DNA from: Bacteroidota bacterium | Lineage (GTDB): Bacteria > Bacteroidota > Bacteroidia > Bacteroidales > Paludibacteraceae | Assembly: GCA_030706465.1 (NCBI GenBank) | Contig: JAUZOM010000001.1 | Coordinates: forward strand, 1,288 to 65,287 | DNA: 64,000 nt | Direction: 5' to 3' | Shown here: one piece after another, positions 1 through 31,729 of the stretch | Layout: the number at the start of each line of letters is the position of its first letter | Numbering within the stretch: position 1 is the stretch's first letter | The notes under the pieces: model-generated | Database searches by the model: none | What the model saw: only the letters and a program-made list of their open reading frames with translations | Told to the model about the DNA's origin: nothing | Translations under genes and position numbers: made by a program

Positions 1-1486
1 GGTCACCATCATTATCCACTATTTGGTTGCCATCTATATAGAGCTTACTGCCATCATCCGACCGTGTAAAGAAAGTATAAGTTCCCGCCTTATCAATATT
101 TATAAAACCCTGAAAAACAAGGGCAGTATTCTCACCTATTTTGTTTTCCATCTCATCGGTATTTATTTCCAATGTCTTCCCCTGCAAAATTGGTTTTAAT
201 AAGGAGAAATCAGGTACTTTGGTCAAATTGATGCCCTTATAAAGTTTATATGCCACACCTGTATTTTTTGTAACCAGCTTAACCACCCTGAAATACCCTT
301 TTGAGCAGTCGCTTTTTTTGCCATCGTTACCAAACCAGGTTGCTTTCACGACGCCGGAGGAAGTCATTTCGAACGGATGGATGTAAACTTCGGAATGCAC
401 CGTAGGAACACTGCCATCGGTGGTATAACGGATTTTACCATCGGTACCGGCGCACTCGATGGTTACCAGGGCTTTTTTATGAACGAACAATCCTCCCACT
501 TCGCCATTGGGTTTATGAGGAGATATAAGCGGGATAAGCGTTGAAGGTGCCATACAGGTGCCGATCAGGTGTTGAGGTTCTGCGGAACCTTCGAAAGCAC
601 ATTCCACCGGACGGCCTTCCCAGGCCTGAGGCATTTCGGCCTGAAAAACAAAAGCTGCAGTTGCACCCACATCATAAAGCCTTACCAAAGCAGGTATTTC
701 GTAGCCTTTTTTTACGCTTTTTCCATAAAGAATAAAAGGGACTTCGTTGCCCTGGAGCGTTTCATGCCCGTGGTCTTTCCCCTTTCCACCATGATCGGCA
801 ACAATTATAAAGAGAGTTTCGTCAAAGATTCCGGCTTCCTTAGTCGAGTTAACAATCTCACTGGCCAATTGGTCTGCCGATTCCACGGCCCGGATATATT
901 TTGGAGTCATATGCCCGAAAACGTGCCCTGCATGGTCGCATTGATCGAAATGAATAAATAAAAAGTTGGGTTTTTCTTTTTTAATCACCTCAATGACCTT
1001 ATCGGTTGTAGCGCGCTCGTCTTTACAAGTAGCATCGATATCCACAAAATGATGGTCGTACAAATATCCAAAACCTTCCCATTGGTGGATAGATGCCGTT
1101 TTTAACGTGGGGTCGGATCTTTTCAGGACATAAAAAATGTCTGGATAACGGGAATTTTCGGTAGTTACTGCCGGTGGAAGACTGTAGTTGTCGTTCCGCC
1201 AATCGTTGCTTGTAACCCCGGTCAATGCCACTCCGGAACTTGTCAACATGGCTTCCCAGTTAGGCGCACTAATGGTAGGCAATACATTACGTGTGCGTAA
1301 CGAATAAGCACCGTTTCTCATGTATTCGTGGAAATGAGGGGTATTGGCTTGCTTGATCCCACCTACCGACATGGCATCGACACCAATCACGATCACATGT
1401 TTTATATTGCCGGTTGCCAGGGTGGCGTTCGGAAACAAACAACTAAGAAAGAATAGGAGCAAGAAAGATATAAGCTTATTTTTCAT
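1..1486 (-). CDS. Secreted alkaline-phosphatase-superfamily phosphodiesterase (type I phosphodiesterase / nucleotide pyrophosphatase-like) with chitobiase/Fn3-like and PA14-like C-terminal domains. The 3' end runs off the window.
   Basis: Absent from the supplied ORF track because the frame is open to the window edge. My translation from the ATG at complement 1486-1484 gives MKNKLISFLLLFFLSCLFPNATLATGNIKHVIVIGVDAMSVGG. It also contains PTISAPNW (nucleophile-Thr region), FIHFDQCDHAGHVFG and IIVADHGGKGKDHG (metal-ligand motifs). Downstream come VTIECAGTDGKIRYTTDGSVP (CHB_HEX_C-like) and FTRSDDGSKLYIDGNQIVDNDGD (PA14-like). Confidence 0.8.
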   Translation of the reverse strand, partial: MKNKLISFLLLFFLSCLFPNATLATGNIKHVIVIGVDAMSVGGIKQANTPHFHEYMRNGAYSLRTRNVLPTISAPNWEAMLTSSGVALTGVTSNDWRNDNYSLPPAVTTENSRYPDIFYVLKRSDPTLKTASIHQWEGFGYLYDHHFVDIDATCKDERATTDKVIEVIKKEKPNFLFIHFDQCDHAGHVFGHMTPKYIRAVESADQLASEIVNSTKEAGIFDETLFIIVADHGGKGKDHGHETLQGNEVPFILYGKSVKKGYEIPALVRLYDVGATAAFVFQAEMPQAWEGRPVECAFEGSAEPQHLIGTCMAPSTLIPLISPHKPNGEVGGLFVHKKALVTIECAGTDGKIRYTTDGSVPTVHSEVYIHPFEMTSSGVVKATWFGNDGKKSDCSKGYFRVVKLVTKNTGVAYKLYKGINLTKVPDFSLLKPILQGKTLEINTDEMENKIGENTALVFQGFINIDKAGTYTFFTRSDDGSKLYIDGNQIVDNDGD

Positions 1487-1597
1487 ACATTTAAATTTTA
1501 GAGACAAGAACAGAGACATTCTTAACTATGCCGTTATGTATCCTAAATCTTGTACAGGGAGGGGGACAATTTATTTTTCAAAATTCATTTACTATGT

Positions 1598-2923
1598 TTA
1601 CTTATCAGACTTCATCTTTGCCAGTGTATCTTCATACACTTTTGAGTCTGCTTTCACGTCTTTAGCGATTCTTATAGCCTCGGTCTCGTTGGTTATAGCT
1701 TCTTCTTTGTGACCCAATTTATAAAGTAAATTAGCATAAGTGTCTATAAACATGTGATTATCCGGATATATCTCTAACGAGCGTTTTGACCAATATAATG
1801 CGTCTTCGAGTACTTTTACATCGGTTACTTTCTCAAAAAATTCCCATGCTATATTATTTAAAGCTTCACTGTATTTATTACGTGAGGCATGTGTAAGGTA
1901 GTCTTTGAGTTGCGCCAACTGAGTTGAATCTACTTTTCCAACAAGTTGAGATTTTATTAATTCAAATTGTTCTAAAGCTTTCTTATCAATTTTTGCAACA
2001 GAATCGGGTGAAATTGTCATCAACGAAGTATTGCTATAAATTGTAGCATAATTTACATATTTAGCAAAATCGTTCGTTTGCTTGTAATAATTCATGTAAA
2101 GCTCTTCTTTTGTTTTAGACTGTGGAGTTTTGGGCAATCTCTCGTTGGCAGCTACCACCTGTTGGAGCAATTGTTCATCCTTAGTTTCGGAAGCTAATTT
2201 AAATGAGTTAGAAATAGCGCTAGCTAGATATGTATAAACGAATCCTCCCAATTTTGGAAAAAACAGGATAGCATTGTCTTGTAGATTTTTGTAAGCCAAA
2301 GAGTTTATTTTTATATTTGAGCTTCCTCTCTGGTAAAATTGAATGATTTTGTCAGATGCACGTTGATCATTAGGCAGCAATGCCAGATATTCATCAAAAA
2401 GTGAGGTAACCGATTTCCCTAATCTTAACCGTTTATCGATATAATCCGACATAAATGCCGGATCGTTTTTTTTCTGTGGATATTCTTTTTCCCATTCCGA
2501 AAGTGGTTTCGGATCATTTAAATCAATAAAGGCATTTTTTGATATGTCAATAAATTTTTCCGCCTCCATGTATCCTCCAGATCTTGAAAAGAGTGTTCCA
2601 TCGGCAGCAATGAAGAGATAGGTTGGATAAGAAGTAACATTGTATTTTTTTGCAATTTCAATACCTTCCCCCTTTTCCGCATCAATCTGATAACACACAA
2701 AGCCTGTATTATACGCTTTTCCTACTTCAGCAAGAGAAAAAATGTCTTTACTCATTTTTTTGCAGGGTCCACACCAAGAGGTATATACATCCACAAAAAT
2801 AGGTTTTTGGGTCTGTTTTGCCTTTTCGAGTACTTTTTCCCAGGTGCCGTGTTCAAATTCAATTCCTTGGGAAAATCCCATTAGTGAAAGGAATAATGCA
2901 AAAATAATAACTAGTGGTTTCAT
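1598..2923 (-). CDS. Secreted thioredoxin-fold protein with a C-terminal TPR-like helical region
   Basis: 441-aa ORF. Signal peptide MKPLVIIFALFLSLMGFSQ. Thioredoxin active site VDVYTSWCGPCKKM. C-terminal helical repeats (ALYWSKRSLEIYPDNHMFIDTYANLLYKLGHKEEA). Confidence 0.8.
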   Translation of the reverse strand: MKPLVIIFALFLSLMGFSQGIEFEHGTWEKVLEKAKQTQKPIFVDVYTSWCGPCKKMSKDIFSLAEVGKAYNTGFVCYQIDAEKGEGIEIAKKYNVTSYPTYLFIAADGTLFSRSGGYMEAEKFIDISKNAFIDLNDPKPLSEWEKEYPQKKNDPAFMSDYIDKRLRLGKSVTSLFDEYLALLPNDQRASDKIIQFYQRGSSNIKINSLAYKNLQDNAILFFPKLGGFVYTYLASAISNSFKLASETKDEQLLQQVVAANERLPKTPQSKTKEELYMNYYKQTNDFAKYVNYATIYSNTSLMTISPDSVAKIDKKALEQFELIKSQLVGKVDSTQLAQLKDYLTHASRNKYSEALNNIAWEFFEKVTDVKVLEDALYWSKRSLEIYPDNHMFIDTYANLLYKLGHKEEAITNETEAIRIAKDVKADSKVYEDTLAKMKSDK

Positions 2924-2938
2924 GTGATTTCTTTTTAT

Positions 2939-3961
2939 TTAAAATGTCGGTGCACTCAACATGGGGATGGCATCGGGGTACGTAAATTCATGCAATAAAG
3001 CCCCGCCTTTTAATCGAACCCAAGACTTGAATTTTCGTTGCCCTTGTTGCAGTACAATTACCCTGGCTCCGTTTTCGTAATGCGTGTACGTGTTATTGCT
3101 TCCGGTAAAGCGGCCATAGCCCAGGTAAATTCCAAATTTATTGAAAACAAAATCATTATCATGATCGTGTCCGGCAAAACAGCCCATCACATCACCACAT
3201 TTTACCATGGCAGCAAACATGCCTGTGTTTACCACCGGAGGACAGGGTTTTTCTTTATACATGCCTATATAGGAAGTTGATTTATCGCTCAGATCAGCGT
3301 ATTCAAGCAATGGAATGTGAAAGAATGCCAGGGATGGAATGGGATGCTGTTGGTTATTGTTCGTTTGTTCTTTACTGTTCTTCCTGTACCATTCAACCTG
3401 ATCGGAACTAAATCCGGCATAAGCCTTTTTGCCTGCAATGGAATCATAATCATTGCTATCCATGCAGTACAACAAAGCTTCTGTTTTTTGAGAATTGGCA
3501 TTCTTCACTTCTACTAGATAGTTATTTACGCCTTTAATGTGTTTTGCCGGCTTGATATTGTAATAACCGGGAAGTTCTCTTGTCATTTTCCCCAACTCTT
3601 CCCGGCTGATTTTCATATTCGGTTCGGTATCATGATTTCCAAAAAGCATGATGTAAGGAATATGCCGCGTTACGACGGGTTCAACTAAAAGTTGTAATCC
3701 TTCCTTCAAAGGCAAATCGGTGATATTGTCCCCGGTAAAGATTACGAAGTCCGGTTTTTCCAAATCCAATACGGCACGCATTGCTTCAATGGTTTTCATG
3801 GAATTATCGAGCCTTGAGTAACATATATGGGTATCGGTGAATTGAACAATTTTAAATGTTCCTGCCGAATTAAATTTCAGAGGATTTGGATTAGAAGCAA
3901 TACCCAACTGAATAAATACACTGAAAGTAAGAAAAACGATGATTGTACTAAATTTTGCCAT
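2939..3961 (-). CDS. Secreted calcineurin-like metallophosphoesterase
   Basis: 340-aa ORF with a signal peptide. All canonical metallophosphoesterase motifs are present: VQFTDTHI (DxH), FTGDNI (GD), LFGNHD (GNHD), FFHIPL (H), AGHDHDND (GHxH). Confidence 0.85.
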   Translation of the reverse strand: MAKFSTIIVFLTFSVFIQLGIASNPNPLKFNSAGTFKIVQFTDTHICYSRLDNSMKTIEAMRAVLDLEKPDFVIFTGDNITDLPLKEGLQLLVEPVVTRHIPYIMLFGNHDTEPNMKISREELGKMTRELPGYYNIKPAKHIKGVNNYLVEVKNANSQKTEALLYCMDSNDYDSIAGKKAYAGFSSDQVEWYRKNSKEQTNNNQQHPIPSLAFFHIPLLEYADLSDKSTSYIGMYKEKPCPPVVNTGMFAAMVKCGDVMGCFAGHDHDNDFVFNKFGIYLGYGRFTGSNNTYTHYENGARVIVLQQGQRKFKSWVRLKGGALLHEFTYPDAIPMLSAPTF

Positions 3962-4137
3962 TATCTAACTATCTGTTTAATTTTGAATTATTATTTGATT
4001 TTGGGGAACTATTCAGCACTTAACTTACTTTGTTGCAAATCAAATACAGGAACAGTATTTTAATTAAAAATAAGCTGCTGAGTAGTAACGATTTTTGAGA
4101 AAGCGATCAATCCTTAAAAAATACAATTATCATCTCC

Positions 4138-4812
4138 TTAAAAGATCTTACTCAGAATTTTCTGAATAACCAGTTCCATTATCTTATATCCTTGCAAGTT
4201 AGGATGCACTTCATCTCGTTGATATTTAGAGTTCAAGCCTTGCCTATCGTCAACCATTGCCGTATAATAATCAGCATACGCAATTTTATTCTCATAAGCA
4301 TAGTTTTTAATCTTTTCGTTTAATTCCTTGATCTGATTAATGGATTCAACTTCGGCACGCCAGGGAAAGTGATGAGCAGGCAACACGGAGCACAAAACTA
4401 CCTTAATTTTATGTTGCTTTGCCAATTCAGCCATAGATACAATATTCTCGAATATATGTTCGACTGAAATATAGCCATTATTTAATGCAATGTCATTTAC
4501 TCCGGCTAGAATAACAGCTGCTTTGGGTTTTAAACTAATGACATCGGACTGAAACCGAACCAGCATTTGAGAACTAACTTGTCCACTAATACCTCTTCCC
4601 ACATAATTATTATTTGTAAAAAAATCAGGATCGGTACTTACCCAACCCTCTGTAATGGAGTTACCCATAAAAACAACCTTAATCGGTTGTTTTAGCGTTT
4701 TATTTGCTTCGGTATATCTGCCAAAATTGGCCCAGTCTTGTGTGCCTTGTGCATTAATAAGAACACTACAGAAAAGCATTGAAAGAAAAAAAATGATTTT
4801 TGAAAATTTCAT
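4138..4812 (-). CDS. SGNH/GDSL-family esterase (candidate glycan O-acetylesterase)
   Basis: The ORF spans 4138..4854. I place the start at the internal MKFSKIIFFLSMLFCSVLINAQ signal peptide (ATG at complement 4812). Block motifs are FMGNSITEGW (GDS-like block I), GVNDI (block III) and DEVHP (block V). Confidence 0.8.
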   Translation of the reverse strand: MKFSKIIFFLSMLFCSVLINAQGTQDWANFGRYTEANKTLKQPIKVVFMGNSITEGWVSTDPDFFTNNNYVGRGISGQVSSQMLVRFQSDVISLKPKAAVILAGVNDIALNNGYISVEHIFENIVSMAELAKQHKIKVVLCSVLPAHHFPWRAEVESINQIKELNEKIKNYAYENKIAYADYYTAMVDDRQGLNSKYQRDEVHPNLQGYKIMELVIQKILSKIF

Positions 4813-5246
4813 GGATTTAATTTTTAGAACCAAGAACCAAGACATTAGAACCAAGACACAGTCGACAACTATCGGGGCTATTAATCATTGCTTTGTGTGC
4901 TTTGTTTTTATTCTTAGTAATAGGTGAATTAACATGGGAGTTACCCATTAAAATAATGATAAATGATAAAAAAAATGATTAGCAAAAATTTATATCAACT
5001 CAATAGCAATAGCCAAATTACCTTCAACAGATGAACTTAGAAACGCCGGTCCTGCACAAGAAGCTCCGTACACATTAGTAGCCGTAAAAGCTACGGCTAA
5101 TAGAAGAAATGGAATAATTTGTTTTTCATGGAATTAAAAACCTCCCCAAGGCCAAACTTTCCCCTAATCCCCCCTCTCCGATAGCTATCGGGAGAGGAAA
5201 GAAGAAAGGAGAAAATGTGAAGTTAGTTTTAATTATCTTATCTTGT

Positions 5247-8200
5247 TTATTGTAATGTCGACGTTAAAGAAGAAGCTGCCTTCACATCATCGGCATAATT
5301 GTCGGAAAACGTGATGGCGAACATAGCCACCCGGTTATCATCCGGAAGTTGTAGTTGCGTAGCTCCTTGAGGAATATCAAGGCAGATACGGTACATGTAT
5401 GTGAACGTATAAGCTTCATTCCCGTACTTTGAACTATGTCGATGGCTTCCAACATATGCTAATGGAACATCCTTAACAAATGACTTAGTGAAGTCTGTCT
5501 GTCCCCATTGACCATAAAAGCCACTGTAATAAGGGATGTCGCATTTGAATACTTTATTTCCGAATGTAAAATCAGCCTTTATATCCCCAACGGTAGAGGC
5601 TGCCAAAAGGTATACTTTCGTATATTTTCGGTCTTTTGGAATTCCAATCAGGTTATTCTTACATTTCAGCACATTATTTGTTTCCATATCTGCTATTTTG
5701 AAAGGAATTCCCTGGCTAACTAGTTCCCGGCTAATCAACTCTGCGGCATACGAACATCCATCTTTATCAAACTCTCCTGCTTCATTGAAAGCATCATAGG
5801 TAAACGCATTATCGGTATAAGGCAATTCAACAGGAGTATTGTGAATTGGCTGAGAGGTAACGATGTTTTCTTTTAACTGTACCGCAAATGTTTTGGGAGA
5901 AAAAGCGGTTGTTGAAAAAGTCAGCTTGTTTCCTTTAAAAGTTGCTTTTCCAATCTCGTCTTCAACACCATTTGTTTCTGCTGCCGAAACAATTTCAGTT
6001 GGGAATTCAACCGTAACATCTTTTGCCTCTTTTCCTTGTGTTTCGTAGAATCGAAGAATGTATTTATCACCATTTTCAGCCTTCTTCAATGCCTTCAATT
6101 CTATTTGAGGAGTGCTAAGTTTTACAAACGAGAACTCACTACCCAACGAACCTTTATGACGAGGAGTTTCAAACGCTATCAACGGATTATTCAATTCTTC
6201 CGATTTAGAAGGAATAGAAGCAAATTGAGGTTGATTTTCATGTCCTACGATAGAATACGTGAAGGTATGATGCCCGAAATCCTGATGATCCTGATAAGAA
6301 TATCTTCCATCCGTTTTAGGGGTATGCAATAAAGTGAGTCGCAAGGTATTGTCACTTGGTTTATCCCATCCATATTTGCAATCATTCATAACAGATATTC
6401 CATATCCTTCGTCACCTGTAATATCTGCCCATTGTTGAGCATACGTTTCATAAGAGGTTGTTGTGTTATTTCCTCTTTTTATAAAACCTAAACCCAAATC
6501 ATAAGTAGCTTTCGGATTACTAACGGACATTGGAAATTCAGCTTTCAAAAGGGTATTAGTACTTCTCCAGTCAATTTCATTCACAATATCAACCCGATCA
6601 TCGGTAGCTCCATCGGTTAAACGAATATACTGAGTGAACCTGGAATTGCCATACCTGCGTTTAACACACAAAGAAGCACAAGCAGGGCCTTTTTCAGCAA
6701 TAGAAATCGAAACACTATCGGTAATTGGAATAGGGGTCACATCTATGGTTTTTTTATCTATCTCCCAAGCTGGCCATTCATAGGATTCGTTTTTAGTGAA
6801 AAGAGCTAATCGGAAAGCTTGCCCTTTTTTAACCAATTCTTTATTGTTTCGTTTATCCATCAGCGAGGCAATGTCTCCGTTGCTGTTTAATACAATCTTA
6901 TAAATACGGTTTTCCAACGTATTTGCCGTAACTTTCAGTTGACCAGCTTTTTCGCTTTTGCTTGTACGCACATCGTAAACGGCATAGCCAATTGGCGCAA
7001 CTTCGGCACAAAATACAATCTCTGCTTTTCCGTTTTTCTTTCCGATAAGTTGAGCATTTACTTCCTTTCCTTTTGGGTCGAATACATGAATAGCCTGATG
7101 AAGACCAGGAAGAGCAATCTCTGCTTTCACTAATCCTTTGTGGGTGGTGGAAAGCGGATTATATATAACCAAAGGAGTTCCTGTTGTGTTTGTATTCAGT
7201 TCTTTGGCTACCCGTCCGACAGAGGACGTAATCACATCGGCAAAACAAGATTGAGAAATCAGTTCGTCGTTCCAAGAGAAAGTATATGCTTTAGGAATAC
7301 TGGTTCCGGTTAAATCATCATGAAATTGGTGCCAGATAAAGCGCTTCCATGATTCATCAATTTCATCGGAAGGATAAACACTTCCTACAAGACAGTTGGC
7401 TACCACGGCTGCTTTCTCCGATGCAACGGCCAACTGTTCATTTCTACGGTTGAAACGTTTCATGGCAGCTTGAGATGTATAGCAACCTGTACCGTGAATA
7501 TCCATCAACAATTCACCATCAAATACGGGTAATTCAGGGTGATTTTTAAATGGAAGATAATCTTTAAACAACTGATCGGACGTTGCATTAATAATCTCGA
7601 TATTGCCACTGCCTTTAAGTCCTTTTTCTACTGACATTACCGATTTAAGAGTTGGAGACCCACCTTGATCGCCGGTGCCATAGTATTTATAAGCAGTTTT
7701 ATTGGCACTACCATTAGCTAAATCCCTTATCTCATTATCATTGCTAATATCTTCGCCCTCAAATGTGTGAACATAATTTTGTGAATTTAATGATGCCATT
7801 ATCTCCGAGCCATCTAATCCTTTCCATAAACCTATATTGAAAGGGAATTTTGAATTACCATAAAAAGAATTGTGCCTCCATTGTAGCTTTTGAGTAGAAA
7901 ATCCAATGAGTCCGCAATGTGAAGCAATAGTTGGGATGGTGTACCCGAATCCGAAACAATCGGGCAAAAAGATATCTTTTGATTGAACTCCAAATTCTTT
8001 TTTATAAAACTCTTGTCCTAACAGGATATTCCGAAAAAACGATTCCGGGGAAGGCATATTGGCATCGTTTGCATCCCAAGAGCTTCCGCTTACGTGCCAG
8101 CGTCCCTGACGAACATATTCTTTTACTTTTTTAAATTTATCGGGATAATACTCTTTCATCCATTTGTATTTTATACCGCCTTCGAAATTAAATACATAGT

Positions 8201-16707: not shown

Positions 16708-16746
16708 ATTATTATATTTTATCATAATCTTGTCTGTTTTTTTGAA

Positions 16747-25243: not shown

Positions 25244-25282
25244 GTTGAAATAGATAGAGGAACAGCCGTCTGCTATTTCAAC
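25244..25282 (-). terminator. 10-bp hairpin downstream of GH3
   Basis: gttgaaatag (25244-25253) pairs with ctatttcaac (25273-25282). The loop is 19 nt. Confidence 0.4.
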
Positions 25283-25300
25283 TCTAAACCATTAATTATA

Positions 25301-27640
25301 TTAATGCTCCTTCACTTCGAATGAGCCAGTTAGTCGAATATCTTCCGAGGAGCTTCCGATCATCACAGAAAAGGTACCTGGTTCAACCATAAAGTGATTA
25401 TCCTTATTCCACAATCCGAGTTCCTGGGAAGTTAACACAAAGTTCACTTCCTTTTCTTCCCCCGGTAATAAATGCAAGCGTTCGAATCCACGTAAGGTTT
25501 TTACATAAGTGGTTACCGAACTATAGTCATCTCTGACATAGAGTTGTACTACTTCATCACCCGGGAGTTTTCCGGTGTTTTTAATGGTACAGCTAATCTT
25601 ATTATTGGCTAATGATTCGATAACAGGATGCTTAATCTGCAAATTTTTGTATTCGAAAGTGGTGTAACTCAAGCCAAATCCAAAGGGGAAAAGAGCTCCA
25701 TCGACCCGTACATTCCCTTTGGAATCAGAACCGGGTTTAAATGGAAAAGCAAAAGGAATTTGTCCTACCGTCTTGGGGATGGTTATCGGTAACTTTCCTC
25801 CTGGATTATAATCGCCAAATAATACCTGAGCTACTGCGTCGCCCATAAATTCTCCGGGAAAACCGCTATACAGAATAGCCGACACATTCTTTTTAGCCCA
25901 ATTTATAGTAACTGCACGTCCATCGATAACAAGGAGAACAATGGGAACTCCCGTAGCATAAACTGCTTTCAACAATTGTTCTTGTCGTCCACAGAGATTT
26001 AAGTTGGAACGAGAATATTCTTCGCGTACCGTTTTTTCATTTCCTCCCAACACTAAAATGGCTACTTCCGATTTTCTGGCTTGTTCTACAGCCTCATTTA
26101 TCATTTCTTTCTCTACAGAATCTAACGGAACATCATACAATTCACTCTCCAGAAAATGCCGATCAATAATATCGCATCCTTTAGCATATAAAACCTGTGC
26201 TTCAGGTAAATACGACTTGATACCTTGATATACTGTTTTGATAGAAGCATTAGCTGGTCCATACCTGCAAATCAAATACTTAGCCTCGTTTGCATTCGGT
26301 CCGATAACCGCTATTCTTCGAATATTCTTATTCAATGGCAGCATATTTTTATCGTTTTTAAGCAATACCATTGATTCTAAAGCGGCTTTCAAAGAAACGG
26401 CCTGACTGGCTTTTGTGTGTACCATTTTCTCCGATAGTTCTCCATCTCCTTTATACGGATTATCGAAAAGCTTTTCTTTAAATTTCACCTTCAGCACATC
26501 CAACACCCGACTATCAATCGTTTTTAAAGAGACCTTACCATCACTAATTGCCTGTCTTAGAGGTAGAACAAAATTATGTGGACCTGAAAAGTTGGTTCGG
26601 ATATTCAACCCCGCATTAATCACCGAAGCTACTGCATCTTCCATTGTTGAAGCAACTTTGTGTTTTGTATTTAAAAATTCGACAGCTTCACTATCGGAAA
26701 CAACATATCCTTTAAATCCCCATTCGTTCCGAAGTATTTGTGTAAGAAAATAATAACTACCTGTAATGGGTTCGCCATCATAATCGTTGTAGGAACTCAT
26801 CACCCCTAACGCTCCGGCTTCTTGTATTGCCTTACGAAAAGGCTCCAGATATAATGTACGCATTTCACGGGGAGCCACATGCGGGTCGGTACGTGTGCCT
26901 TCGTCACGTCCACCAACCGGTATGCTGTATACAGCAAAATGCTTAGGCGTTGACACTAATCCATTACTTTGTAATCCTAACACCATTTGTTTGCCTAATT
27001 CGCCCACTAAATAAGGATCTTCACCATAGCATTCCACTACTCTTCCCCAACGCGGATCCTGAGCCAGATCCAAAATTGGCGAATAAATATTGGTATAACC
27101 TAAGGCATTTGCCTCCTGTGCTGTTACTCCAGCTATCTCTTTTATCAATGCTCTATCCCAACTGGCACCCTGTCCACACTGGGCAGGAAATAAAGTAGCT
27201 CTATCAGAGCATAAACCTCGAATCCCTTCGTTTGTGAAGTCTACCGGAATACCTAAACGAGTCTCTTCCACAAACCACCGTTGAATTGTTTGTCGGTTCT
27301 GCACCCCAGTTGCATAGGGGAACGAAAGCGTTGAACCAAACTTTCCCAATCCATTAGCCTGCTCATCGATATTTCCAATTCCATCCTTCCATATTTCGGT
27401 CCGCCACTTGGAGGTTGGGGCAACATCTTCTAACACCCGGCCAGAACCATAAAGAGTGGCAAGCTGGCACGTCTTTTCTTCCAAGGTCATTTTCCGAAGA
27501 AGGTCTTCAGCTCTTGCATCAATGGATAAAGACGGATTTTCAAAAACATCCATAACTCCATTTTTATTAAAATCGATCCACCCTTTTCTGTAGATATTTC
27601 TTGTCTGTGCAAAAGCTAACTGACTAAAAAAAAAACACAA
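25301..27640 (-). CDS. GH3 beta-glucosidase-type glycoside hydrolase. The true start is probably at 27668, disrupted by a homopolymer frameshift.
   Basis: 779-aa ORF beginning at a TTG. GH3 motifs: KHFAVYS and GYVVSDSEAV (nucleophile Asp region). C-terminal Fn3-like domain. See the finding on the 10-nt homopolymer at 27626-27635. Confidence 0.85.
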   Translation of the reverse strand: MCFFFSQLAFAQTRNIYRKGWIDFNKNGVMDVFENPSLSIDARAEDLLRKMTLEEKTCQLATLYGSGRVLEDVAPTSKWRTEIWKDGIGNIDEQANGLGKFGSTLSFPYATGVQNRQTIQRWFVEETRLGIPVDFTNEGIRGLCSDRATLFPAQCGQGASWDRALIKEIAGVTAQEANALGYTNIYSPILDLAQDPRWGRVVECYGEDPYLVGELGKQMVLGLQSNGLVSTPKHFAVYSIPVGGRDEGTRTDPHVAPREMRTLYLEPFRKAIQEAGALGVMSSYNDYDGEPITGSYYFLTQILRNEWGFKGYVVSDSEAVEFLNTKHKVASTMEDAVASVINAGLNIRTNFSGPHNFVLPLRQAISDGKVSLKTIDSRVLDVLKVKFKEKLFDNPYKGDGELSEKMVHTKASQAVSLKAALESMVLLKNDKNMLPLNKNIRRIAVIGPNANEAKYLICRYGPANASIKTVYQGIKSYLPEAQVLYAKGCDIIDRHFLESELYDVPLDSVEKEMINEAVEQARKSEVAILVLGGNEKTVREEYSRSNLNLCGRQEQLLKAVYATGVPIVLLVIDGRAVTINWAKKNVSAILYSGFPGEFMGDAVAQVLFGDYNPGGKLPITIPKTVGQIPFAFPFKPGSDSKGNVRVDGALFPFGFGLSYTTFEYKNLQIKHPVIESLANNKISCTIKNTGKLPGDEVVQLYVRDDYSSVTTYVKTLRGFERLHLLPGEEKEVNFVLTSQELGLWNKDNHFMVEPGTFSVMIGSSSEDIRLTGSFEVKEH

Positions 27641-27825
27641 TACAAATCAGACCTATTTTACTCTTCATCAGTTTAGAAGCCGCCCCAAATCCATTCCAAG
27701 AAGGGAATGCAAAGCAAGTTCTGTTTTTAATCAGTTCCTTATGTATCCAAACTTGTTTTTGAAATGGGAATTTCATATATTATTAAATGCTTGGTGAATA
27801 AATAATTGGATATCAAAATCGTTTT

Positions 27826-29238
27826 TTAATACTGACGTTGCTGTAGAGTTGGATGCTCTTCTTTTATTTTAATCAATAGCTCACCAAAAAGTGTATTAGA
27901 CCATGCAAACCAGTAACGGGTGTAGTATTCTGGCTTATCTTTATTGAACGATTCATGCATAAAACCAGTCGATGAATGTGTCTGCTTAAGCATTCGGAGA
28001 CAATCTGCTATTTCAGCTTCGTTGTTCGAAGTAAGGGCTCTCATAATAATCGACATAGGCCAAATCATGTTATCCCCTATGTGCGGTCCGCCAATACCCT
28101 CGGCAGCTTTCCCTTTATAAAAATATGGATTATCCAGACTCCACACAAACCGGCGTGTATTTTGATAAATTTTATCGGTTGCCGGCAAATAGCCCAAATA
28201 AGGTAATGAAAGCAAAGAAGGTACGTTAGCATCATCCATCATTAGATAATTGCCATAACCATCTACTTCGTAAGCGAATATTTTGCCATATGTAGGATGG
28301 TTTACAATAGCATATCTCTTAATTCCATGATCCACTTCATTTGCCAGGGTGTTGCACTCAATAGCAAAAGCATTGTCGTGACGGATAGCGGTTTCCATCT
28401 CGGCAAGTTGGCGTAATGAAATTACGGCAAAACAGTTGGACGGAACAAGATAAGCATAGGTGGTTGCATCGTCAGACGGTCGGAACATGGAACAAATCAT
28501 GCCCGTTGGTCGCACCGGGTTACCATAGCCATCGCCAAACAAAGTATCTGAAGCTTTGTTGGTTTTTCGGGTAAATCGATACGGTCCTTTTGAATTTTTA
28601 CGTTGTTGTTCCTTAAAGGTGTTGACAATCGTTTGCATGGCTTTGTGCCATTGATTGTCGAAACAACTGTAATCGCCAGTCATCTTCCAGTAATGATACC
28701 CCAAACGAATGACATAACAAAGCCCATCAACTTCCCATTTACGTTCGTGTAACTCTGGCCGCATATTGGTGTTATCGCTTGCCCATCCACTACCTTCAGT
28801 CCCATAATTAAAAGCATTGGCATACGGATCAATCAGCACGCATTTTACTTGGCGGTTAATAACTCCCTGAATTAGGTTTTGTAACTCTTTATCTTCTCTC
28901 ATAAAAGGCAAATACGGCCAAACCTGTGCCGAACAATCGCGCAACCACATGGCATAAATATCACCAGTTATCACAAATGTGTCGTTTTTGCCTTCTCTTT
29001 TTCCAAATTTTACTGTCCGATCGAGTGTGTTCGGGAAACAATTTCCAAACATCCAGGCCAATTCTTTATCCTGAATGCTTTGCTGCATTTGCTGAATTTC
29101 TTTTTCAATAGCCGGGCTACTGAAATTCCGTTGAGATTTACCGACTCTAACTTCGGAGAAGCTCTGAGATAGGACTGTTTGAACAATCAATGCTGAAAAT
29201 AGAAAAGTTATTTTCAAAACTTTTAGAAAATGTTTCAT
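27826..29238 (-). CDS. GH125 exo-alpha-1,6-mannosidase
   Basis: The ORF spans 27826..29289. The likely start is MKHFLKVLKITFLFSALIVQTVLSQ (ATG at complement 29238). It carries FVITGDIYAMWLRDCSAQVWPYLPF, the GH125 (DUF1237) signature. Confidence 0.85.
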   Translation of the reverse strand: MKHFLKVLKITFLFSALIVQTVLSQSFSEVRVGKSQRNFSSPAIEKEIQQMQQSIQDKELAWMFGNCFPNTLDRTVKFGKREGKNDTFVITGDIYAMWLRDCSAQVWPYLPFMREDKELQNLIQGVINRQVKCVLIDPYANAFNYGTEGSGWASDNTNMRPELHERKWEVDGLCYVIRLGYHYWKMTGDYSCFDNQWHKAMQTIVNTFKEQQRKNSKGPYRFTRKTNKASDTLFGDGYGNPVRPTGMICSMFRPSDDATTYAYLVPSNCFAVISLRQLAEMETAIRHDNAFAIECNTLANEVDHGIKRYAIVNHPTYGKIFAYEVDGYGNYLMMDDANVPSLLSLPYLGYLPATDKIYQNTRRFVWSLDNPYFYKGKAAEGIGGPHIGDNMIWPMSIIMRALTSNNEAEIADCLRMLKQTHSSTGFMHESFNKDKPEYYTRYWFAWSNTLFGELLIKIKEEHPTLQQRQY

Positions 29239-29428
29239 CGTGTATTCCTGCTTGTTTGCATCAAATATTCTTGTCTCAAATTTAACCAATTAAACAGCCA
29301 CCCCCAAAGGAGGTGGATTTTTAAGCTATATTAAAATTAATTCTAACACAATTTTTCCATTTTCAATCCAAAGAAAGAATTGATTTTTGATGTGTAAACA
29401 AATTCAAAAACAATATATCCAATTCGGG

Positions 29429-31729
29429 TTATTTATCTGAAAATGAATAGGGGAAAGTATCCTTTTTAGTACCACGCCGATAATTGGGTTTAGGAATCAT
29501 CTGGAAGAGGATGTTCCCGCCTTTTTGTAATTGAGAATGTGTAAAGAAATTCTTAGTATATTCTTTTTTATCCCAATCAATATTATCAATATAAACATTC
29601 TCATCGCTATTATTCAGTGCTTTAAGTGTAAGTTTCCGACCATTTTCCATCGTTAAGACAAGTTCGGGAAAGAGAGGTGAACCGATGGCATAGTCACCCG
29701 AAACAGGTGAAACCGGATAGAATCCCAAGGCCGAGAAAACATACCAGGCAGAAGTTTGGCCGTTATCTTCATCGCCACAATATCCATCAGGTGTTGGTTT
29801 ATAGAGACGGTCCATAATTTGCCGTGTCCAATACTGCGTTTTCCAGGGCTGGCCCGCCCAATCGTATAAATAGGTCATGTGCTGAATTGGCTGATTACCA
29901 TGTGCATACTGTCCAAAATTCATAATTTGCATTTCGCGAATTTCGTGAATTACCTGACCATAATAAGATTCATCAAAAACCGGTGGAAGAATAAACACCG
30001 AATCGAGCATGGCTACAAACTTCTTTTGTCCTCCCATAAGTTCCGAGAGACCTGCCGGATCATGAAAAACGCACCACGAATAATGCCAGCTATTGCCTTC
30101 TGTAAAATCGCCACCCCACGAAAACGGATTAAAATTCTCACGGAAGTCACCTTTTGAATTCCGGCCAGCCATTAAGTTATATTTCGGGTAAAAAAGTTTC
30201 TTGTAGTTGAAGGATCGTTCCGCAAAGGTTTCGATCGTTTTATTATCTTTCTTTAATTCCTTTGCTAACTTATAAATACAGTAGTCGGCATAAGCATACT
30301 CCAACGTACGAGCAGCACTCTCCTTTACACCGATATCATTCGGTACATATCCAAGTGCATCATATTCTTTGGCTCCGGCTCGTCCAACCGATGTAATAGT
30401 TGGGTGAGCATTGTAAGCATTTTTTATAATTCCTTCCCATAATGTTTTTATATCAACATCTTTCACTCCGTTCAGATAGGCGGAAGCAATTACTGAAGTA
30501 GAATTAGAGCCCACCATAATGTCAATGTGTCCCGGAGCTGCCCATTCAGGCAACCAACCGCTTTCTTTATAGGTATTGGCTAAACCTTCTAATATGTATT
30601 TGCTTTGTGTGGGGTAAAACAGATTAAAGAATGGATGAACCGCCCGGAAAGTATCCCAAAAACCGTTATCTGTGTACATACGTCCGGGGCAAACCTTGCC
30701 ATTATACGGACTATAATGAATGATATTTCCTTTTGCATCCAACTCGTGAAACTCTCGGGGAAAAAGTAAAAGCCGATACAGACAGGTGTAGAAGGTTCGA
30801 ACTTTATCTAAATCATTTAGCGTGGCATTTTCTACAGAAAAACGGGACAACTGCTTATTCCAAATTTCTTTGCTCTCAGAACAAACTTCATCGAAATTTC
30901 GACCGGCAACTTCAGTTTTTAGATTCTGATCGGCTTGTTCCCAACTTATAAAGGAGGATGAAATCCGAGCCTGTACAGCTTCGCCTCTTTTGGTCGAGAA
31001 CGAAACAATAGCTCCAGTTCGCTTGCCCTGAGTTTCTTTTTCATTTTTTATTAACGCATCTTCTTTCCAAATAGAATAATTCTGAATTGGCTTATCGAAA
31101 TAAATCACGAAATAGTTCTTGAAATTAGAGGGGACGCGCTGATTTTCATATCCGAAGCGATCGGTCGAATAGCCGATCACTTTATTTTCCTCTGGAATCA
31201 CCTTTATATATGATGCCCTGGCAAAAGCATCAATGACAACATTAGCCTGATTTGTTTCTGGAAAAGTAAAGCGCATCATACAGGATCGTTCGGTAGGAGT
31301 AACTTCTGCTGTTACATTATAATCGGCTAAGTATACTTTATAATAGTGAGGTAAGGATGTTTCTGCTTTATGTGAGAACCAGCTTTTACGATCCTCTTCA
31401 AGAAAATTCTTTTTACCTACAGTTGGCATTAAGGAAAAAACACCATAGTCTCCGGTCCAGGGACTGGGTTGATGAGTCTGCCGGATTCCTGTTAAGTAAT
31501 ACCTGTTATAAGAATAAAACCAACGATCATCATTTTTGGTTGCAGTTTGAGGTGACCAATAATTCATTCCCCATGGAAGAGCTGTCGCGGGATAAAGATT
31601 CCCATTCGACAACGAGAATTCACTCTGGCTTCCCATAATTGGCATTACATATTTAGTGTAATCCTTCTGTGCATTGGCGGGTAGAAAAAATAAAACTAAA
31701 AAAAACAATTGATTTATTCGTGTCTTCAT
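29429..31729 (-). CDS. GH92 alpha-mannosidase
   Basis: 766-aa ORF with signal peptide MKTRINQLFFLVLFFLPANAQ. It contains GNQPIQHMTYLYDW and GDEDNGQTSAWYVFSALGFYP. Confidence 0.9.
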   Translation of the reverse strand: MKTRINQLFFLVLFFLPANAQKDYTKYVMPIMGSQSEFSLSNGNLYPATALPWGMNYWSPQTATKNDDRWFYSYNRYYLTGIRQTHQPSPWTGDYGVFSLMPTVGKKNFLEEDRKSWFSHKAETSLPHYYKVYLADYNVTAEVTPTERSCMMRFTFPETNQANVVIDAFARASYIKVIPEENKVIGYSTDRFGYENQRVPSNFKNYFVIYFDKPIQNYSIWKEDALIKNEKETQGKRTGAIVSFSTKRGEAVQARISSSFISWEQADQNLKTEVAGRNFDEVCSESKEIWNKQLSRFSVENATLNDLDKVRTFYTCLYRLLLFPREFHELDAKGNIIHYSPYNGKVCPGRMYTDNGFWDTFRAVHPFFNLFYPTQSKYILEGLANTYKESGWLPEWAAPGHIDIMVGSNSTSVIASAYLNGVKDVDIKTLWEGIIKNAYNAHPTITSVGRAGAKEYDALGYVPNDIGVKESAARTLEYAYADYCIYKLAKELKKDNKTIETFAERSFNYKKLFYPKYNLMAGRNSKGDFRENFNPFSWGGDFTEGNSWHYSWCVFHDPAGLSELMGGQKKFVAMLDSVFILPPVFDESYYGQVIHEIREMQIMNFGQYAHGNQPIQHMTYLYDWAGQPWKTQYWTRQIMDRLYKPTPDGYCGDEDNGQTSAWYVFSALGFYPVSPVSGDYAIGSPLFPELVLTMENGRKLTLKALNNSDENVYIDNIDWDKKEYTKNFFTHSQLQKGGNILFQMIPKPNYRRGTKKDTFPYSFSDK

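What the first reader, a model, noticed from the sequence alone, without database searches (positions are those of the whole stretch)
1..31729. Alpha-mannoside PUL with four unrelated phosphoesterase folds, two of them exported by T9SS: candidate phosphomannan or phosphoglycan degradation system
One co-directional block combines two kinds of gene.

Glycosidases: GH92 x2 (a third GH92 sits in the plus-strand cluster), GH125, GH38 and GH3.

Phosphoesterases of four different superfamilies:
- EEP (11107-12969);
- PAP-like metallophosphoesterase (8653-11037);
- calcineurin-like metallophosphoesterase (2939-3961);
- AP-superfamily phosphodiesterase with PA14 (1-1486).

In Bacteroides thetaiotaomicron yeast-mannan PULs, an EEP-fold enzyme acts as a mannose-6-phosphatase. 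Some GH92 enzymes can uncap Man-P-Man diesters. That much is established.

What seems unusual here:
- the number and diversity of phosphoesterases;
- their carbohydrate-targeting accessory domains (LamG, PKD, PA14);
- T9SS tails on two of them, which implies they act on the polymer outside the cell.

The block also carries an SGNH esterase and a secreted thioredoxin. Together with the GH30 genes on the other strand, this is consistent with attack on fungal cell-wall phosphopeptidomannan. Other mannosyl-phosphate polymers are equally possible substrates.
Basis: partly seen in the sequence, partly recalled or inferred. Interest (0 to 1): 0.7.

Follow-up and report, generated by a model that had tools for sequence, protein, structure and literature searches.

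The report
Alpha-mannoside PUL carrying a phosphoesterase cassette
A Bacteroidota sugar-harvesting gene cluster for alpha-mannose glycans has picked up several secreted phosphate-ester-cleaving enzymes, one of them catalytically dead, which suggests it targets a phosphorylated mannose polymer; this is an unusual variant of a known system, not a new kind.

Summary
Three corrections apply.

1. There are three phosphoesterase superfamilies, not four. The PAP-like and calcineurin-like proteins share the metallophosphoesterase fold.
2. The T9SS PAP-like protein (8653-11037) has lost 6 of 8 metal or catalytic motif residues. It is probably a pseudo-phosphatase.
3. The thioredoxin gene is absent from every related locus.

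EEP, the 340-aa metallophosphoesterase (MPE340) and the NPP-type enzyme keep intact active sites.

The order SusCD-SGBPs-GH92-EEP-PAP-GH38-SGNH-MPE-NPP recurs in at least 8 independent contigs of one lineage, whose nearest labelled relative is a Paludibacteraceae MAG. The phosphoesterases are therefore co-conserved with GH92 and GH38.

Outside that lineage:
- the EEP family is not detectably related to the B. thetaiotaomicron Man-6-phosphatase BT3783;
- it usually sits without mannosidases;
- it often sits in ECF-sigma/FecR-SusCD loci that carry only phosphoesterases (PUS-like);
- the EEP+NPP pair also appears in PULs with other glycosidases.

No endo-mannanase (GH76/GH99) is present in the window.

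Best reading: a PUL for a phosphate-decorated or phosphodiester-bridged alpha-mannoside glycan, built by fusing a glycan PUL with a portable phosphoesterase cassette. The substrate is unproven. It is a new variant of a known kind, of moderate interest.

The parts
1..1486 (-). NPP-type alkaline-phosphatase-superfamily phosphodiesterase with CHB_HEX_C/Fn3_assoc and PA14. Its C-terminal ~55 aa are cut off by the window start.
   Evidence: Pfam Phosphodiest 9e-26, PA14 3e-09. Best PDB relatives are ENPP5 and ENPP3. The metal and nucleophile motifs (VIGVD, ISAPN, FDQCDHAGH, ADHG) look intact by inspection. Orthologues of 550-552 aa follow MPE340 in L088 and L089.
1598..2923 (-). Secreted thioredoxin-fold protein with a TPR-like tail. 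Probably not part of the system.
   Evidence: Pfam Thioredoxin_2/_7; WCGPC motif and signal peptide. No homologue appears in any related locus. MPE and NPP are directly adjacent in L088 and L091.
2939..3961 (-). 340-aa secreted calcineurin-like metallophosphoesterase (MPE340) with an intact active site.
   Evidence: Pfam Metallophos 9e-15. D43, H45, D78, N109, H110, H215, H265 and H267 are invariant in 25 homologues. Model pLDDT 89.8. Foldseek gives mammalian PAP/TRAP5, SMPDL3B, 2NXF and Rv0805 at TM about 0.6, which is generic.
4138..4854 (-). SGNH/GDSL esterase. The likely true start is the ATG at 4812.
   Evidence: Pfam Lipase_GDSL_2 2.5e-24. Conserved after GH38 in L001, L088, L089, L091, L096 and L099.
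5247..8405 (-). GH38 alpha-mannosidase with a type-I signal peptide, so periplasmic.
   Evidence: Pfam GH38 N, middle and C domains. Closest PDB entries are Ams1-type broad-specificity mannosidases.
8653..11037 (-). T9SS-exported PAP-like pseudo-phosphatase. Domain order: SKICH-like N-domain, LamG, PAP Fn3, degenerate metallophosphoesterase domain, type-A CTD.
   Evidence: No Metallophos hit. Six of 8 motif residues are replaced. The MPE domain is nevertheless the best conserved domain, at 67-76% identity. Degenerate syntenic copies form one clade. CTD scores 41.7 bits.
11107..12969 (-). T9SS-exported EEP-fold phosphoesterase. Domain order: SKICH-like N-domain, PKD, EEP catalytic domain, type-A CTD.
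   Evidence: Pfam Exo_endo_phos 4.8e-24, PKD, Por_Secre_tail. N217, E248, D390, N392, D469, D517 and H518 are invariant in 22 homologues. Model pLDDT 85.5. Foldseek gives TDP2, nSMase2, LINE-1 EN and SHIP1.
13150..15285 (-). GH92 alpha-mannosidase (GH92a), the immediate upstream neighbour of EEP.
   Evidence: Pfam GH92 1.4e-130. Best PDB hit is 6F8Z at 1.6e-76, against CcMan5 2XSG at 4e-40.
15367..16725 (-). DUF4998 surface lipoprotein, a candidate glycan-binding protein.
   Evidence: Pfam DUF4998 3.6e-31. Lipobox ...AACSD.
16747..17943 (-). DUF4959/DUF5126/DUF5000 surface lipoprotein, a candidate glycan-binding protein.
   Evidence: Pfam. Lipobox ...FACSEE.
17972..19975 (-). SusD-family lipoprotein.
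   Evidence: Pfam SusD_RagB 1.5e-49, SusD-like_3.
19987..23178 (-). SusC-type TonB-dependent transporter.
   Evidence: Pfam CarbopepD_reg_2 and Plug.
23510..25225 (-). GxGYxYP-family putative glycoside hydrolase.
   Evidence: Pfam GxGYxYP_C 5.4e-23.
25301..27640 (-). GH3 beta-glycosidase.
   Evidence: Pfam GH3 N, C and Fn3-like domains.
27826..29289 (-). GH125 exo-alpha-1,6-mannosidase.
   Evidence: Pfam GH125 4.4e-176.
29429..31729 (-). GH92 alpha-mannosidase (GH92b), the first gene of the co-directional block.
   Evidence: Pfam GH92 2.7e-164.
32615..35248 (-). Candidate regulator. Domain order: signal peptide, unknown domain, Kelch propeller, one TM helix, cytoplasmic tail with a weak winged-helix match.
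   Evidence: Pfam Kelch families. The TM segment and tail were read from the sequence. Trans_reg_C scores only E=0.21. Orthologues (58-62%) lie next to the locus in L088 and L089 despite rearrangement.

Best explanation
This is a lineage-specific SusCD-type polysaccharide utilisation locus for an alpha-mannoside glycan that carries phosphate esters. The phosphate may be a decoration (Man-6-P, Man-1-P-6-Man) or a phosphodiester bridge between oligomannosyl units. The locus looks like a classical glycan PUL into which a portable phosphoesterase cassette (EEP + NPP + small metallophosphoesterase) has been inserted.

Proposed working:
1. The T9SS exports the EEP enzyme, which cleaves phosphoester bonds on the polymer at or beyond the cell surface.
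2. The T9SS also exports its neighbour, a PAP-like protein. That protein shares the same SKICH-like N-terminal module but has lost its metal site. It probably acts as a non-catalytic binding or targeting partner.
3. The DUF4959/DUF4998 lipoproteins and SusD capture fragments, and SusC imports them.
4. In the periplasm, GH92, GH38 and GH125 trim alpha-mannose.
5. MPE340 and the NPP/PA14 enzyme remove the residual phosphate mono- or diesters that would block the exo-mannosidases.
6. The SGNH esterase removes acyl groups.

Shown: the gene content, the state of each active site, the T9SS tails, synteny conservation and the modular distribution of the cassette.
Inferred: the substrate, every enzymatic step, the cellular locations beyond signal and tail reading, and co-transcription.
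For: - Domain content is confirmed.
- Active-site residues are intact in EEP and MPE340. The NPP motifs look intact by inspection.
- The T9SS CTDs score above the curated cut-off.
- EEP and PAP share a 41%-identical N-terminal module of about 100 aa. Its family matches Pfam SKICH and is often fused to PAP-Fn3, EEP, Metallophos and T9SS tails.
- The order SusCD-DUFs-GH92-EEP-PAP-GH38-SGNH-MPE-NPP is kept in L001, L004, L088, L090, L091/L093, L092, L094, L096, L099 and L100, at 60-85% protein identity.
- The EEP+NPP pair recurs in PULs with other glycosidases: Gelidibacter with GH109/GH95/GH92/GH3, and Hwangdonia with GLAA-B/GH95.
- EEP + NPP + an MPE340 homologue (44%) recur together behind SusCD in Parabacteroides.
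- Homologues carry discoidin and LamG/BNR_assoc_N modules.
- Biochemical precedents exist. BT3783 is a phosphatase, and the GH38s BT3774 and Bs04085 cleave Man-1-P (PMC4978465; preprint 10.1101/2022.07.15.500217).
Against: - There is no experimental evidence on substrate or expression.
- EEP shows no detectable sequence relation to BT3783/3MPR. Its structural neighbours are generic for the fold.
- Of about 77 EEP-family loci outside the lineage, only one (L019) has a GH92 homologue within 10 kb. That test detects only homologues of the window's own proteins.
- Several relatives sit in GH-free ECF/FecR-SusCD loci, which look like phosphorus-scavenging systems.
- No endo-mannanase is present in the window.
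- PAP-like is catalytically degenerate.
- Intergenic gaps of 176-434 bp lie around GH38, SGNH and MPE. Promoter and terminator scans are at chance level, so co-transcription is unproven.
- Synteny at 60-85% identity could partly reflect shared descent.
Confidence: 0.5

Rival explanations
1. The phosphoesterases are a phosphorus-scavenging (PUS-like) set. They belong to the class found in ECF-sigma/FecR-SusCD 'phosphate utilisation' loci. Their role here would be phosphorus acquisition, from whatever organophosphate is available or from the imported glycan. They would be controlled by phosphate status rather than needed for carbon use of the mannan.
For: - The EEP family sits directly behind ECF/FecR-SusC-SusD(SusD-like_2) with no glycosidase in Parabacteroides goldsteinii and P. 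segnis, Bacteroides sp. GM023 and Filimonas.
- An MPE340 homologue sits behind ECF/FecR-SusCD in L086.
- This architecture matches the F. johnsoniae PUS loci: ECF/anti-sigma, PusCD and a PF00149 phosphodiesterase, all induced by Pi depletion (PMC8115612; preprint 10.64898/2026.09.03.749221).
Against: - The window has no ECF-sigma/FecR pair.
- Its SusD is of the classical glycan type (SusD_RagB/SusD-like_3).
- The phosphoesterase genes are interleaved with GH92 and GH38 in a conserved order.
- They carry PA14, PKD and LamG modules.
- This reading is not exclusive of the best explanation. The chemistry could be the same and only the physiological purpose different.
Confidence: 0.2
2. The target is the head group of a mannosylated inositol-phospho-lipid or anchor. 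Candidates are fungal or plant glycosyl-inositol-phosphoceramides (MIPC, GIPC), actinobacterial PIM or lipomannan, and GPI remnants. EEP or MPE would act as a phospholipase-C-type enzyme releasing an inositol-phosphoglycan. The mannosidases would then trim that glycan.
For: - Foldseek places nSMase2 second for EEP and SMPDL3B second for MPE340.
- The shared N-domain is SKICH-like. From my own knowledge, SKICH is a module of eukaryotic EEP-fold inositol 5-phosphatases. The Pfam match is shown.
- GH30a on the other strand is closest to SrfJ and human glucosylceramidase.
- SusCD-like import of inositol phosphates, and a proposed GIPC-PLC in a Flavobacterium PUS locus, have been reported. A fungal GIPC-PLC is characterised (PMC11496612).
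Against: - The structural matches have TM about 0.5-0.6 at 13-17% identity. TDP2, LINE-1 EN and PAP match equally well, so they show the fold only.
- MPE340 gives no sequence hit to acid-sphingomyelinase-like proteins.
- No PI-PLC, ceramidase or lipase-type gene lies in the block.
- GH30a belongs to a different, divergently oriented cluster.
Confidence: 0.12
3. The phosphoesterases are functionally unrelated neighbours. EEP could be a T9SS-secreted nuclease and NPP a nucleotide pyrophosphatase, both for nucleic-acid or nucleotide scavenging. On this view they were carried along by descent inside an ordinary high-mannose or alpha-mannan PUL.
For: - The best sequence-level PDB hits for the EEP profile are ExoIII/APE1-type nucleases, though only at E = 0.003-0.04.
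- NPP relatives are nucleotide pyrophosphatases.
- In Snuella and many other genomes the EEP gene stands alone.
- Large intergenic gaps allow separate transcription.
Against: - The interleaved order is kept across at least 8 contigs, and through rearrangements as in L089.
- EEP and NPP are repeatedly linked to SusCD and to glycosidases in distant genera.
- The enzymes carry carbohydrate-binding-type accessory modules.
Confidence: 0.1

Closest known systems
Bacteroides thetaiotaomicron yeast alpha-mannan PULs (MAN-PUL1/2: BT2620-2632, BT3773-3792; Cuskin et al. 2015, PMC4978465)
   Same: Both have SusCD with surface binding proteins, GH92 + GH38 + GH125 exo-mannosidases, and an EEP-fold phosphoesterase encoded among the mannosidases. 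A GH38 there cleaves Man-1-P.
   Different: - No GH76 or GH99 endo-mannanase and no HTCS regulator here.
- The EEP is 620 aa, multidomain and T9SS-exported. It is not detectably related in sequence to the 314-aa periplasmic BT3783 (3MPR is absent from the PDB hits).
- Three further phosphoesterase-type genes are present: NPP, MPE and a dead PAP.
Bacteroides salyersiae PUL52, a T9SS-dependent alpha-mannan PUL (preprint 10.1101/2022.07.15.500217)
   Same: Both are alpha-mannan PULs (GH38, GH92, GH125, GH2, GH3) in which several proteins, including non-catalytic binding proteins, carry type-A T9SS tails.
   Different: There the T9SS cargo are glycosidases (GH76, GH38) and mannan-binding proteins. 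Here the cargo are an EEP phosphoesterase and a degenerate PAP-like protein. No T9SS glycosidase lies in the minus-strand block.
Flavobacterium johnsoniae PUS loci / PusCD (PMC8115612; preprint 10.64898/2026.09.03.749221)
   Same: A SusCD-like transporter is encoded with secreted phosphodiesterases, including a calcineurin-like enzyme. Relatives of the window's EEP, MPE and NPP sit in loci of this architecture.
   Different: PUS loci have an ECF-sigma/anti-sigma pair, carry no glycosidases, and are Pi-regulated for phosphorus acquisition from phospho(inositol)lipids. The window has none of the first, has many glycosidases, and its regulation is unknown.
CcGH92_5 (CcMan5) mannosyl-phosphate uncapping GH92 of Cellulosimicrobium cellulans (PMC4576951)
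   Same: It belongs to family GH92, and a phosphorylated mannan is the conceptual substrate.
   Different: GH92a matches CcMan5 (2XSG) at 4e-40. It matches ordinary Bacteroides GH92s at 1e-63 to 1.6e-76. Nothing specifically links it to the uncapping enzyme.

Membership tests
Bacteroidota polysaccharide utilisation locus (PUL) | Adjacent SusC-like TonB-dependent transporter and SusD-like lipoprotein, with co-located CAZymes | tested here: met
   SusC 19987-23178 and SusD 17972-19975 are flanked by GH92, GH125, GH3 and GH38.
B. thetaiotaomicron-type yeast alpha-mannan PUL (MAN-PUL1-3) | Surface endo-alpha-mannanase (GH76 and/or GH99) | tested here: not met
   All 30 ORFs of at least 150 aa, plus the cut ORF, were scanned against Pfam. 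No GH76 or GH99 was found.
B. thetaiotaomicron-type yeast alpha-mannan PUL (MAN-PUL1-3) | Exo-alpha-mannosidases GH92, GH38 and GH125 | tested here: met
B. thetaiotaomicron-type yeast alpha-mannan PUL (MAN-PUL1-3) | BT3783/BT2630-family mannose-6-phosphatase | tested here: not met
   The fold (EEP) is shared. However, 3MPR is not found by the family profile at E<=1, nor by the catalytic domain at E<=10. Activity was not tested.
B. thetaiotaomicron-type yeast alpha-mannan PUL (MAN-PUL1-3) | Induction by, and growth on, yeast mannan | not testable with these tools
   This needs culture or transcriptomics.
T9SS type-A cargo | C-terminal sorting domain (TIGR04183/PF18962) plus an N-terminal signal peptide | tested here: met
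   TIGR04183 scores 41.7 bits (PAP-like) and 31.3 bits (EEP) against a cut-off of 23. Both resemble F. johnsoniae CTD structures 8GLJ and 8GLK. Signal peptides were read from the sequence. T9SS machinery genes are not in the window, so their presence was not tested.
Active calcineurin-like / purple acid metallophosphoesterase (the 8653-11037 protein) | Motifs DxH, GD, GNH[DE], H and GHxH providing the seven metal or catalytic residues | tested here: not met
   The eight motif positions read N Y D S R N H N, against D H D N H H H H in canonical relatives. There is no PF00149 hit.
Active calcineurin-like metallophosphoesterase (the 2939-3961 protein) | The same five motifs | tested here: met
   The motifs DTH, GD, GNHD, FFHIP and GHDH are present, and their residues are invariant in 25 homologues. 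PF00149 scores 9e-15.
EEP (endonuclease/exonuclease/phosphatase) superfamily, active | Conserved N, E (Mg), D/N (GDFN), D and D-H (SDH) catalytic set | tested here: met
   N217, E248, D390, N392, D469, D517 and H518 are invariant across 22 homologues. The fold is confirmed by the model and Foldseek.
NPP / alkaline-phosphatase superfamily phosphodiesterase | PF01663 core with a Thr/Ser nucleophile and Asp/His metal ligands | tested here: met
   PF01663 scores 9e-26. The alignment to ENPP5 places S73 at the nucleophile and D37, the D/H of DHAGH and the D/H of ADHG at the ligands. The residues were judged by inspection only.
PUS-type (phosphate utilisation) SusCD locus | An ECF-sigma/anti-sigma pair next to PusCD, phosphoesterases without glycosidases, and Pi-depletion induction | tested here: not met
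   There is no ECF-sigma or FecR in the window, and the block holds seven glycosidase or putative glycosidase genes. Pi regulation is not testable here. Relatives of the enzymes do occur in such loci.
SKICH domain (PF17751), for the shared N-terminal module | A match to the Pfam model above the gathering score | tested here: inconclusive
   The two window copies score E=0.19 and E=0.012, below the cut-off. Of 57 homologues found with their profile, 29 match SKICH, the best at 3.5e-25.

The most novel reading that the evidence does not exclude
EEP + NPP + small MPE form a portable 'phosphodiester-polymer' cassette.
- On its own behind SusCD (Parabacteroides, Bacteroides, Filimonas), the cassette would depolymerise a phosphodiester-linked polymer without any glycosidase.
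- In this lineage it has been grafted onto an alpha-mannosidase PUL. The T9SS-exported phosphodiesterase, not an endo-glycanase, would then be the depolymerase for a phosphodiester-bridged oligomannosyl polymer.
- The duplicated PAP would have been converted into a metal-free, Arg-substituted, phosphate-recognising surface binding protein that shares the enzyme's SKICH-like targeting module.
Probability: 0.15. Interest if true: 0.75.

Novelty: new variant of a known kind. Interest (0 to 1): 0.5.

Why it matters
Phosphate esters on mannans, phosphoglycans and glycolipid head groups block exo-glycosidases. How environmental Bacteroidota deal with them is known from essentially one enzyme, BT3783.

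This locus offers three uncharacterised, active-site-intact phosphoesterase families that are genetically tied to mannosidases. It also offers a naturally inactivated paralogue that may have become a binding protein.

If the cassette idea holds, it would link carbon-oriented PULs with the recently described phosphorus-oriented PusCD systems. It would also give candidate enzymes for uncapping or dephosphorylating mannose-phosphate glycans, which is relevant to lysosomal-enzyme glyco-engineering. None of this overturns current models.

Tried and rejected
Not on record. The collection holds a 608-aa version, P0001.
- **PDB sequence searches.** The single-sequence searches for EEP and PAP-like (E<=0.01) found only the T9SS tail and PKD. 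The EEP family profile and the catalytic domain alone gave only weak ExoIII and TDP2 hits and never 3MPR. The idea that the EEP is a BT3783 orthologue was dropped.
- **Foldseek on the EEP and MPE340 models.** It returned only fold-level neighbours, so no functional assignment was possible.
- **Acid-sphingomyelinase/GIPC-PLC-like identity for MPE340.** Not supported by sequence. Only SMPDL3B appears, as one of several equal structural hits.
- **Sigma-70 promoter and terminator scans.** Both were at shuffle level.
- **The Bacteroidetes -7 motif TAnnTTTG.** Found only upstream of the Kelch gene, GH92b and GH125. The operon structure could not be resolved.
- **Rfam.** Nothing in the whole window, and nothing meaningful in the 1.8-kb gene-free stretch.
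- **NCBIfam.** No specific names for any of the phosphoesterases.
- **An intact PAP paralogue in the window.** None was found by tblastn.
- **Conservation of the upstream GH92b-GH125-GH3-GxGYxYP genes.** Not testable, because related loci reach only to SusC with the 10-kb flank limit.

Full report
**1. What is in the sequence**

The minus-strand block is read here in the direction of transcription:

| Coordinates | Gene |
|---|---|
| 29429-31729 | GH92b |
| 27826-29289 | GH125 |
| 25301-27640 | GH3 |
| 23510-25225 | GxGYxYP |
| 19987-23178 | SusC |
| 17972-19975 | SusD |
| 16747-17943 | DUF4959/5126/5000 lipoprotein |
| 15367-16725 | DUF4998 lipoprotein |
| 13150-15285 | GH92a |
| 11107-12969 | PKD-EEP with T9SS tail |
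| 8653-11037 | LamG, PAP-N, T9SS tail |
| 5247-8405 | GH38 |
| 4138-4854 | SGNH esterase |
| 2939-3961 | Metallophos (MPE340) |
| 1598-2923 | thioredoxin |
| 1-1486 | NPP-type AP-superfamily enzyme with CHB_HEX_C and PA14 |

- The window start cuts the last gene. Orthologues are 550-552 aa.
- Upstream at 32615-35248 lies an 877-aa Kelch protein.
- The plus-strand side holds GH30, an acyltransferase, GH2, a third GH92, a second GH30, a T9SS protein and two more SusCD pairs.
- Both T9SS tails exceed the curated TIGR04183 cut-off. They also resemble solved F. johnsoniae CTDs.

**2. Corrections to the observation**

*Three superfamilies, not four.* Homologues of the 'PAP-like' protein hit PF00149. 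It therefore belongs to the same calcineurin-like metallophosphoesterase superfamily as the 340-aa enzyme.

*The PAP-like protein is catalytically degenerate.* It has no Metallophos hit.
- In an alignment with 17 relatives, the eight motif positions read N434, Y436, D462, S497, R498, N578, H614, N616. Canonical members read D, H, D, N, H, H, H, H.
- Related contigs were then checked for the copy in the same position, between EEP and GH38. It is canonical in L088, L092 and L094.
- Elsewhere it is degenerate in at least three patterns: NYDNRNRN, DRNNLNRH and D[QY]NNQHHH.
- The degenerate copies form one clade.
- A canonical paralogue often lies a few kilobases away (L001, L096, L091/L095, L093/L089).
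- No canonical copy exists in the window. In L089 and L095 it lies just beyond the NPP gene, which here would be off the left edge.
- The metallophosphoesterase domain remains the best conserved domain, at 67-76% identity.
- This is the signature of a pseudoenzyme kept for a non-catalytic role. Arg replaces metal-binding His in several lineages. That is compatible with metal-free phosphate recognition, which is inference.

*The thioredoxin gene is not conserved.* It has no counterpart in any related locus. MPE340 and NPP are directly adjacent there.

**3. State of the other phosphoesterases**

- **EEP.** It keeps the full catalytic set, N217, E248, D390/N392, D469 and D517/H518, invariant in 22 homologues.
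  - The AlphaFold model (pLDDT 85.5) gives only fold-level neighbours: TDP2, neutral sphingomyelinase 2, LINE-1 endonuclease and SHIP1.
  - BT3783 (PDB 3MPR per PMC4978465) is found neither with the family profile at E<=1 nor with the catalytic domain at E<=10.
  - The B. thetaiotaomicron precedent is therefore an analogy of fold and context, not orthology.
- **MPE340.** It has all five motifs. The model is confident (pLDDT 89.8). Its neighbours are again generic: mammalian PAP, SMPDL3B, 2NXF and Rv0805.
- **NPP enzyme.** It aligns to ENPP5 and ENPP3 with nucleophile and ligand positions occupied.

**4. A shared targeting module**

- EEP and the PAP-like protein begin with a 41%-identical domain of about 100 aa.
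- An exhaustive profile search found 1613 cluster representatives, often with 2-11 tandem copies.
- Of 57 top hits, 29 match Pfam SKICH (best 3.5e-25). Partner domains include PAP-type Fn3 (8), EEP (5), T9SS tails (6) and Metallophos (2).
- The two window copies alone are sub-threshold for SKICH.
- The shared module suggests that the active EEP and the dead PAP are directed to the same target.

**5. Co-conservation**

*Within the lineage.* The order SusC-SusD-DUF4959-DUF4998-GH92a-EEP-PAP-GH38-(SGNH)-(MPE340)-(NPP) is kept. It holds in L001, L004, L088, L090, L091/L093, L092, L094, L096, L099 and L100, at 60-85% identity.
- The sub-block GH38-SGNH-MPE340-NPP and the Kelch gene persist through rearrangement in L089.
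- The nearest labelled genome is a Paludibacteraceae MAG.

*Outside the lineage.* The genome scan kept the best 80 EEP-family loci.
- Homologues of the window's mannosidases lie within 10 kb only in the close relatives and in Gelidibacter L019.
- L019 reads ECF/FecR-SusCD-EEP-GH109-GLAA-B-GH95-NPP-GH92-GH3.
- Hwangdonia L034 reads SusCD-kinase-EEP-GLAA-B-GH95-NPP.
- Flavobacterium ZB4P13 has the EEP beside GH35, GH29, GH20 and a LamG/BNR_assoc_N protein.
- Parabacteroides goldsteinii L065 reads ECF/FecR-SusCD-EEP-LamG/BNR_N/EEP-MPE-[IS110]-NPP-MPE340 homologue (44%), with no glycosidase. Parabacteroides segnis L058 shows the same tblastn pattern (SusC, EEP, NPP, MPE340 homologue) without the IS110 spacing.
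- Bacteroides sp. GM023 reads FecR-SusCD-EEP-MPE, and Filimonas reads ECF/FecR-SusCD-EEP.
- Other contexts are unrelated.

The picture is of a mobile cassette, EEP with or without NPP and MPE. It sometimes stands alone behind a SusCD pair, as in the PUS loci of Flavobacterium (PMC8115612; PusCD preprint). It is sometimes embedded among glycosidases of varying families.

**6. Interpretation**

This is an alpha-mannoside PUL that has absorbed a phosphoesterase cassette in order to handle a phosphate-bearing mannoside glycan.
- Known biochemistry makes the logic plausible. Phosphate and mannosyl-phosphate block exo-mannosidases. B. thetaiotaomicron solves this with the GH38 BT3774 and the phosphatase BT3783.
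- B. salyersiae shows that mannan PULs can use the T9SS, including for non-catalytic binding proteins.
- The lack of any GH76 or GH99 argues against classical yeast alpha-1,6-mannan as handled by MAN-PUL1-3.
- That gap leaves room for the idea that the exported phosphodiesterase itself is the depolymerising step. This is inference, and it is the novel case (about 0.15).

Rivals:
- a phosphorus-scavenging role (0.2; not exclusive of the best reading);
- mannosylated inositol-phospholipid head groups (0.12), hinted at by nSMase2, SMPDL3B and SKICH resemblances and by GH30a being closest to glucosylceramidases;
- unrelated neighbours such as a secreted nuclease (0.1).

GH92a shows no special affinity to the uncapping enzyme CcMan5 (PMC4576951).

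**7. What could not be resolved**

- Operon structure. The scans are at chance level, and the gaps around GH38, SGNH and MPE are 176-434 bp.
- The substrate, the regulation and the cellular location beyond signal and tail reading.
- Whether the upstream GH92b-GH125-GH3-GxGYxYP genes are co-conserved.
- The organism's exact taxonomy.

**8. Verdict**

- It is a new variant of a known kind, an alpha-mannan PUL with phosphatase, of moderate interest (0.5).
- Two side results are worth a specialist's look. One is a decaying PAP paralogue retained as a probable binding protein. The other is a bacterial SKICH-like module recurrently fused to phosphoesterases.

Noticed in passing
window 32615-35248 (-): An 877-aa protein with a signal peptide, an unassigned domain of about 250 aa, a Kelch propeller, one TM helix and a cytoplasmic tail. 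The tail matches Trans_reg_C only weakly (E=0.21). It looks like a ToxR-like one-component membrane regulator. Orthologues stay next to the locus in L088 and L089 despite rearrangement.
   Followed up: partly
window 40187-41964: A 1.8-kb stretch between the divergent PBP and GH2 genes has no ORF over 100 aa and no Rfam match. It contains an 11-nt tandem repeat (CCCTAWCYGAA, about 8 copies) at 41035-41130. An inverted arm at 41002-41041 flanks the repeat.
   Followed up: partly
window 44933-45367 (+) and 50729-52168 (+): The 144-aa ORF between GH2 and GH92c is 63% identical to residues 151-290 of the T9SS-tailed protein of unknown function at 50729-52168. It appears to be a duplicated fragment. 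The N-terminal part of that T9SS protein also resembles the N-terminus of GH30b (27%).
   Followed up: no
window 36363-37802 (+): GH30a is closest to Salmonella SrfJ (7e-88) and human glucosylceramidase (3.5e-71). The B. thetaiotaomicron beta-1,6-glucanase 5NGK scores 9e-54. The 'fungal beta-1,6-glucan' reading of this gene is therefore not the obvious one.
   Followed up: partly
window 10678-10980 (-) and 12610-12915 (-): The shared N-terminal module of the two T9SS proteins belongs to a large bacterial family (1613 cluster representatives) that matches Pfam SKICH. It often occurs in tandem arrays, and is often fused to PAP-Fn3, EEP, Metallophos, subtilase and T9SS domains.
   Followed up: yes
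L065 4818-17276 (Parabacteroides goldsteinii DSM 19448); same tblastn pattern (SusC, EEP, NPP, MPE340 homologue) in L058 (P. segnis): A SusCD locus with an ECF-sigma/FecR pair encodes only phosphoesterases: EEP, LamG-BNR_assoc_N-EEP, two Metallophos and one NPP. It has no glycosidase. In L065 an IS110 transposase interrupts it. The L058 (P. segnis) pattern lacks the IS110 spacing; that locus was seen by tblastn only, not Pfam-annotated.
   Followed up: partly
window 39242-40186 (-): A stand-alone lipoprotein-type periplasmic sugar-binding protein (Peripla_BP_4). No adjacent ABC transporter or sensor-kinase domains are present.
   Followed up: no
window 29298-29316 (-): A GC-rich 8-bp hairpin followed by a T-rich tail lies between the GH92b stop and the GH125 start. 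A TAAATTTG motif sits 46 nt upstream of GH125. Together they may mark a transcription boundary inside the block.
   Followed up: no
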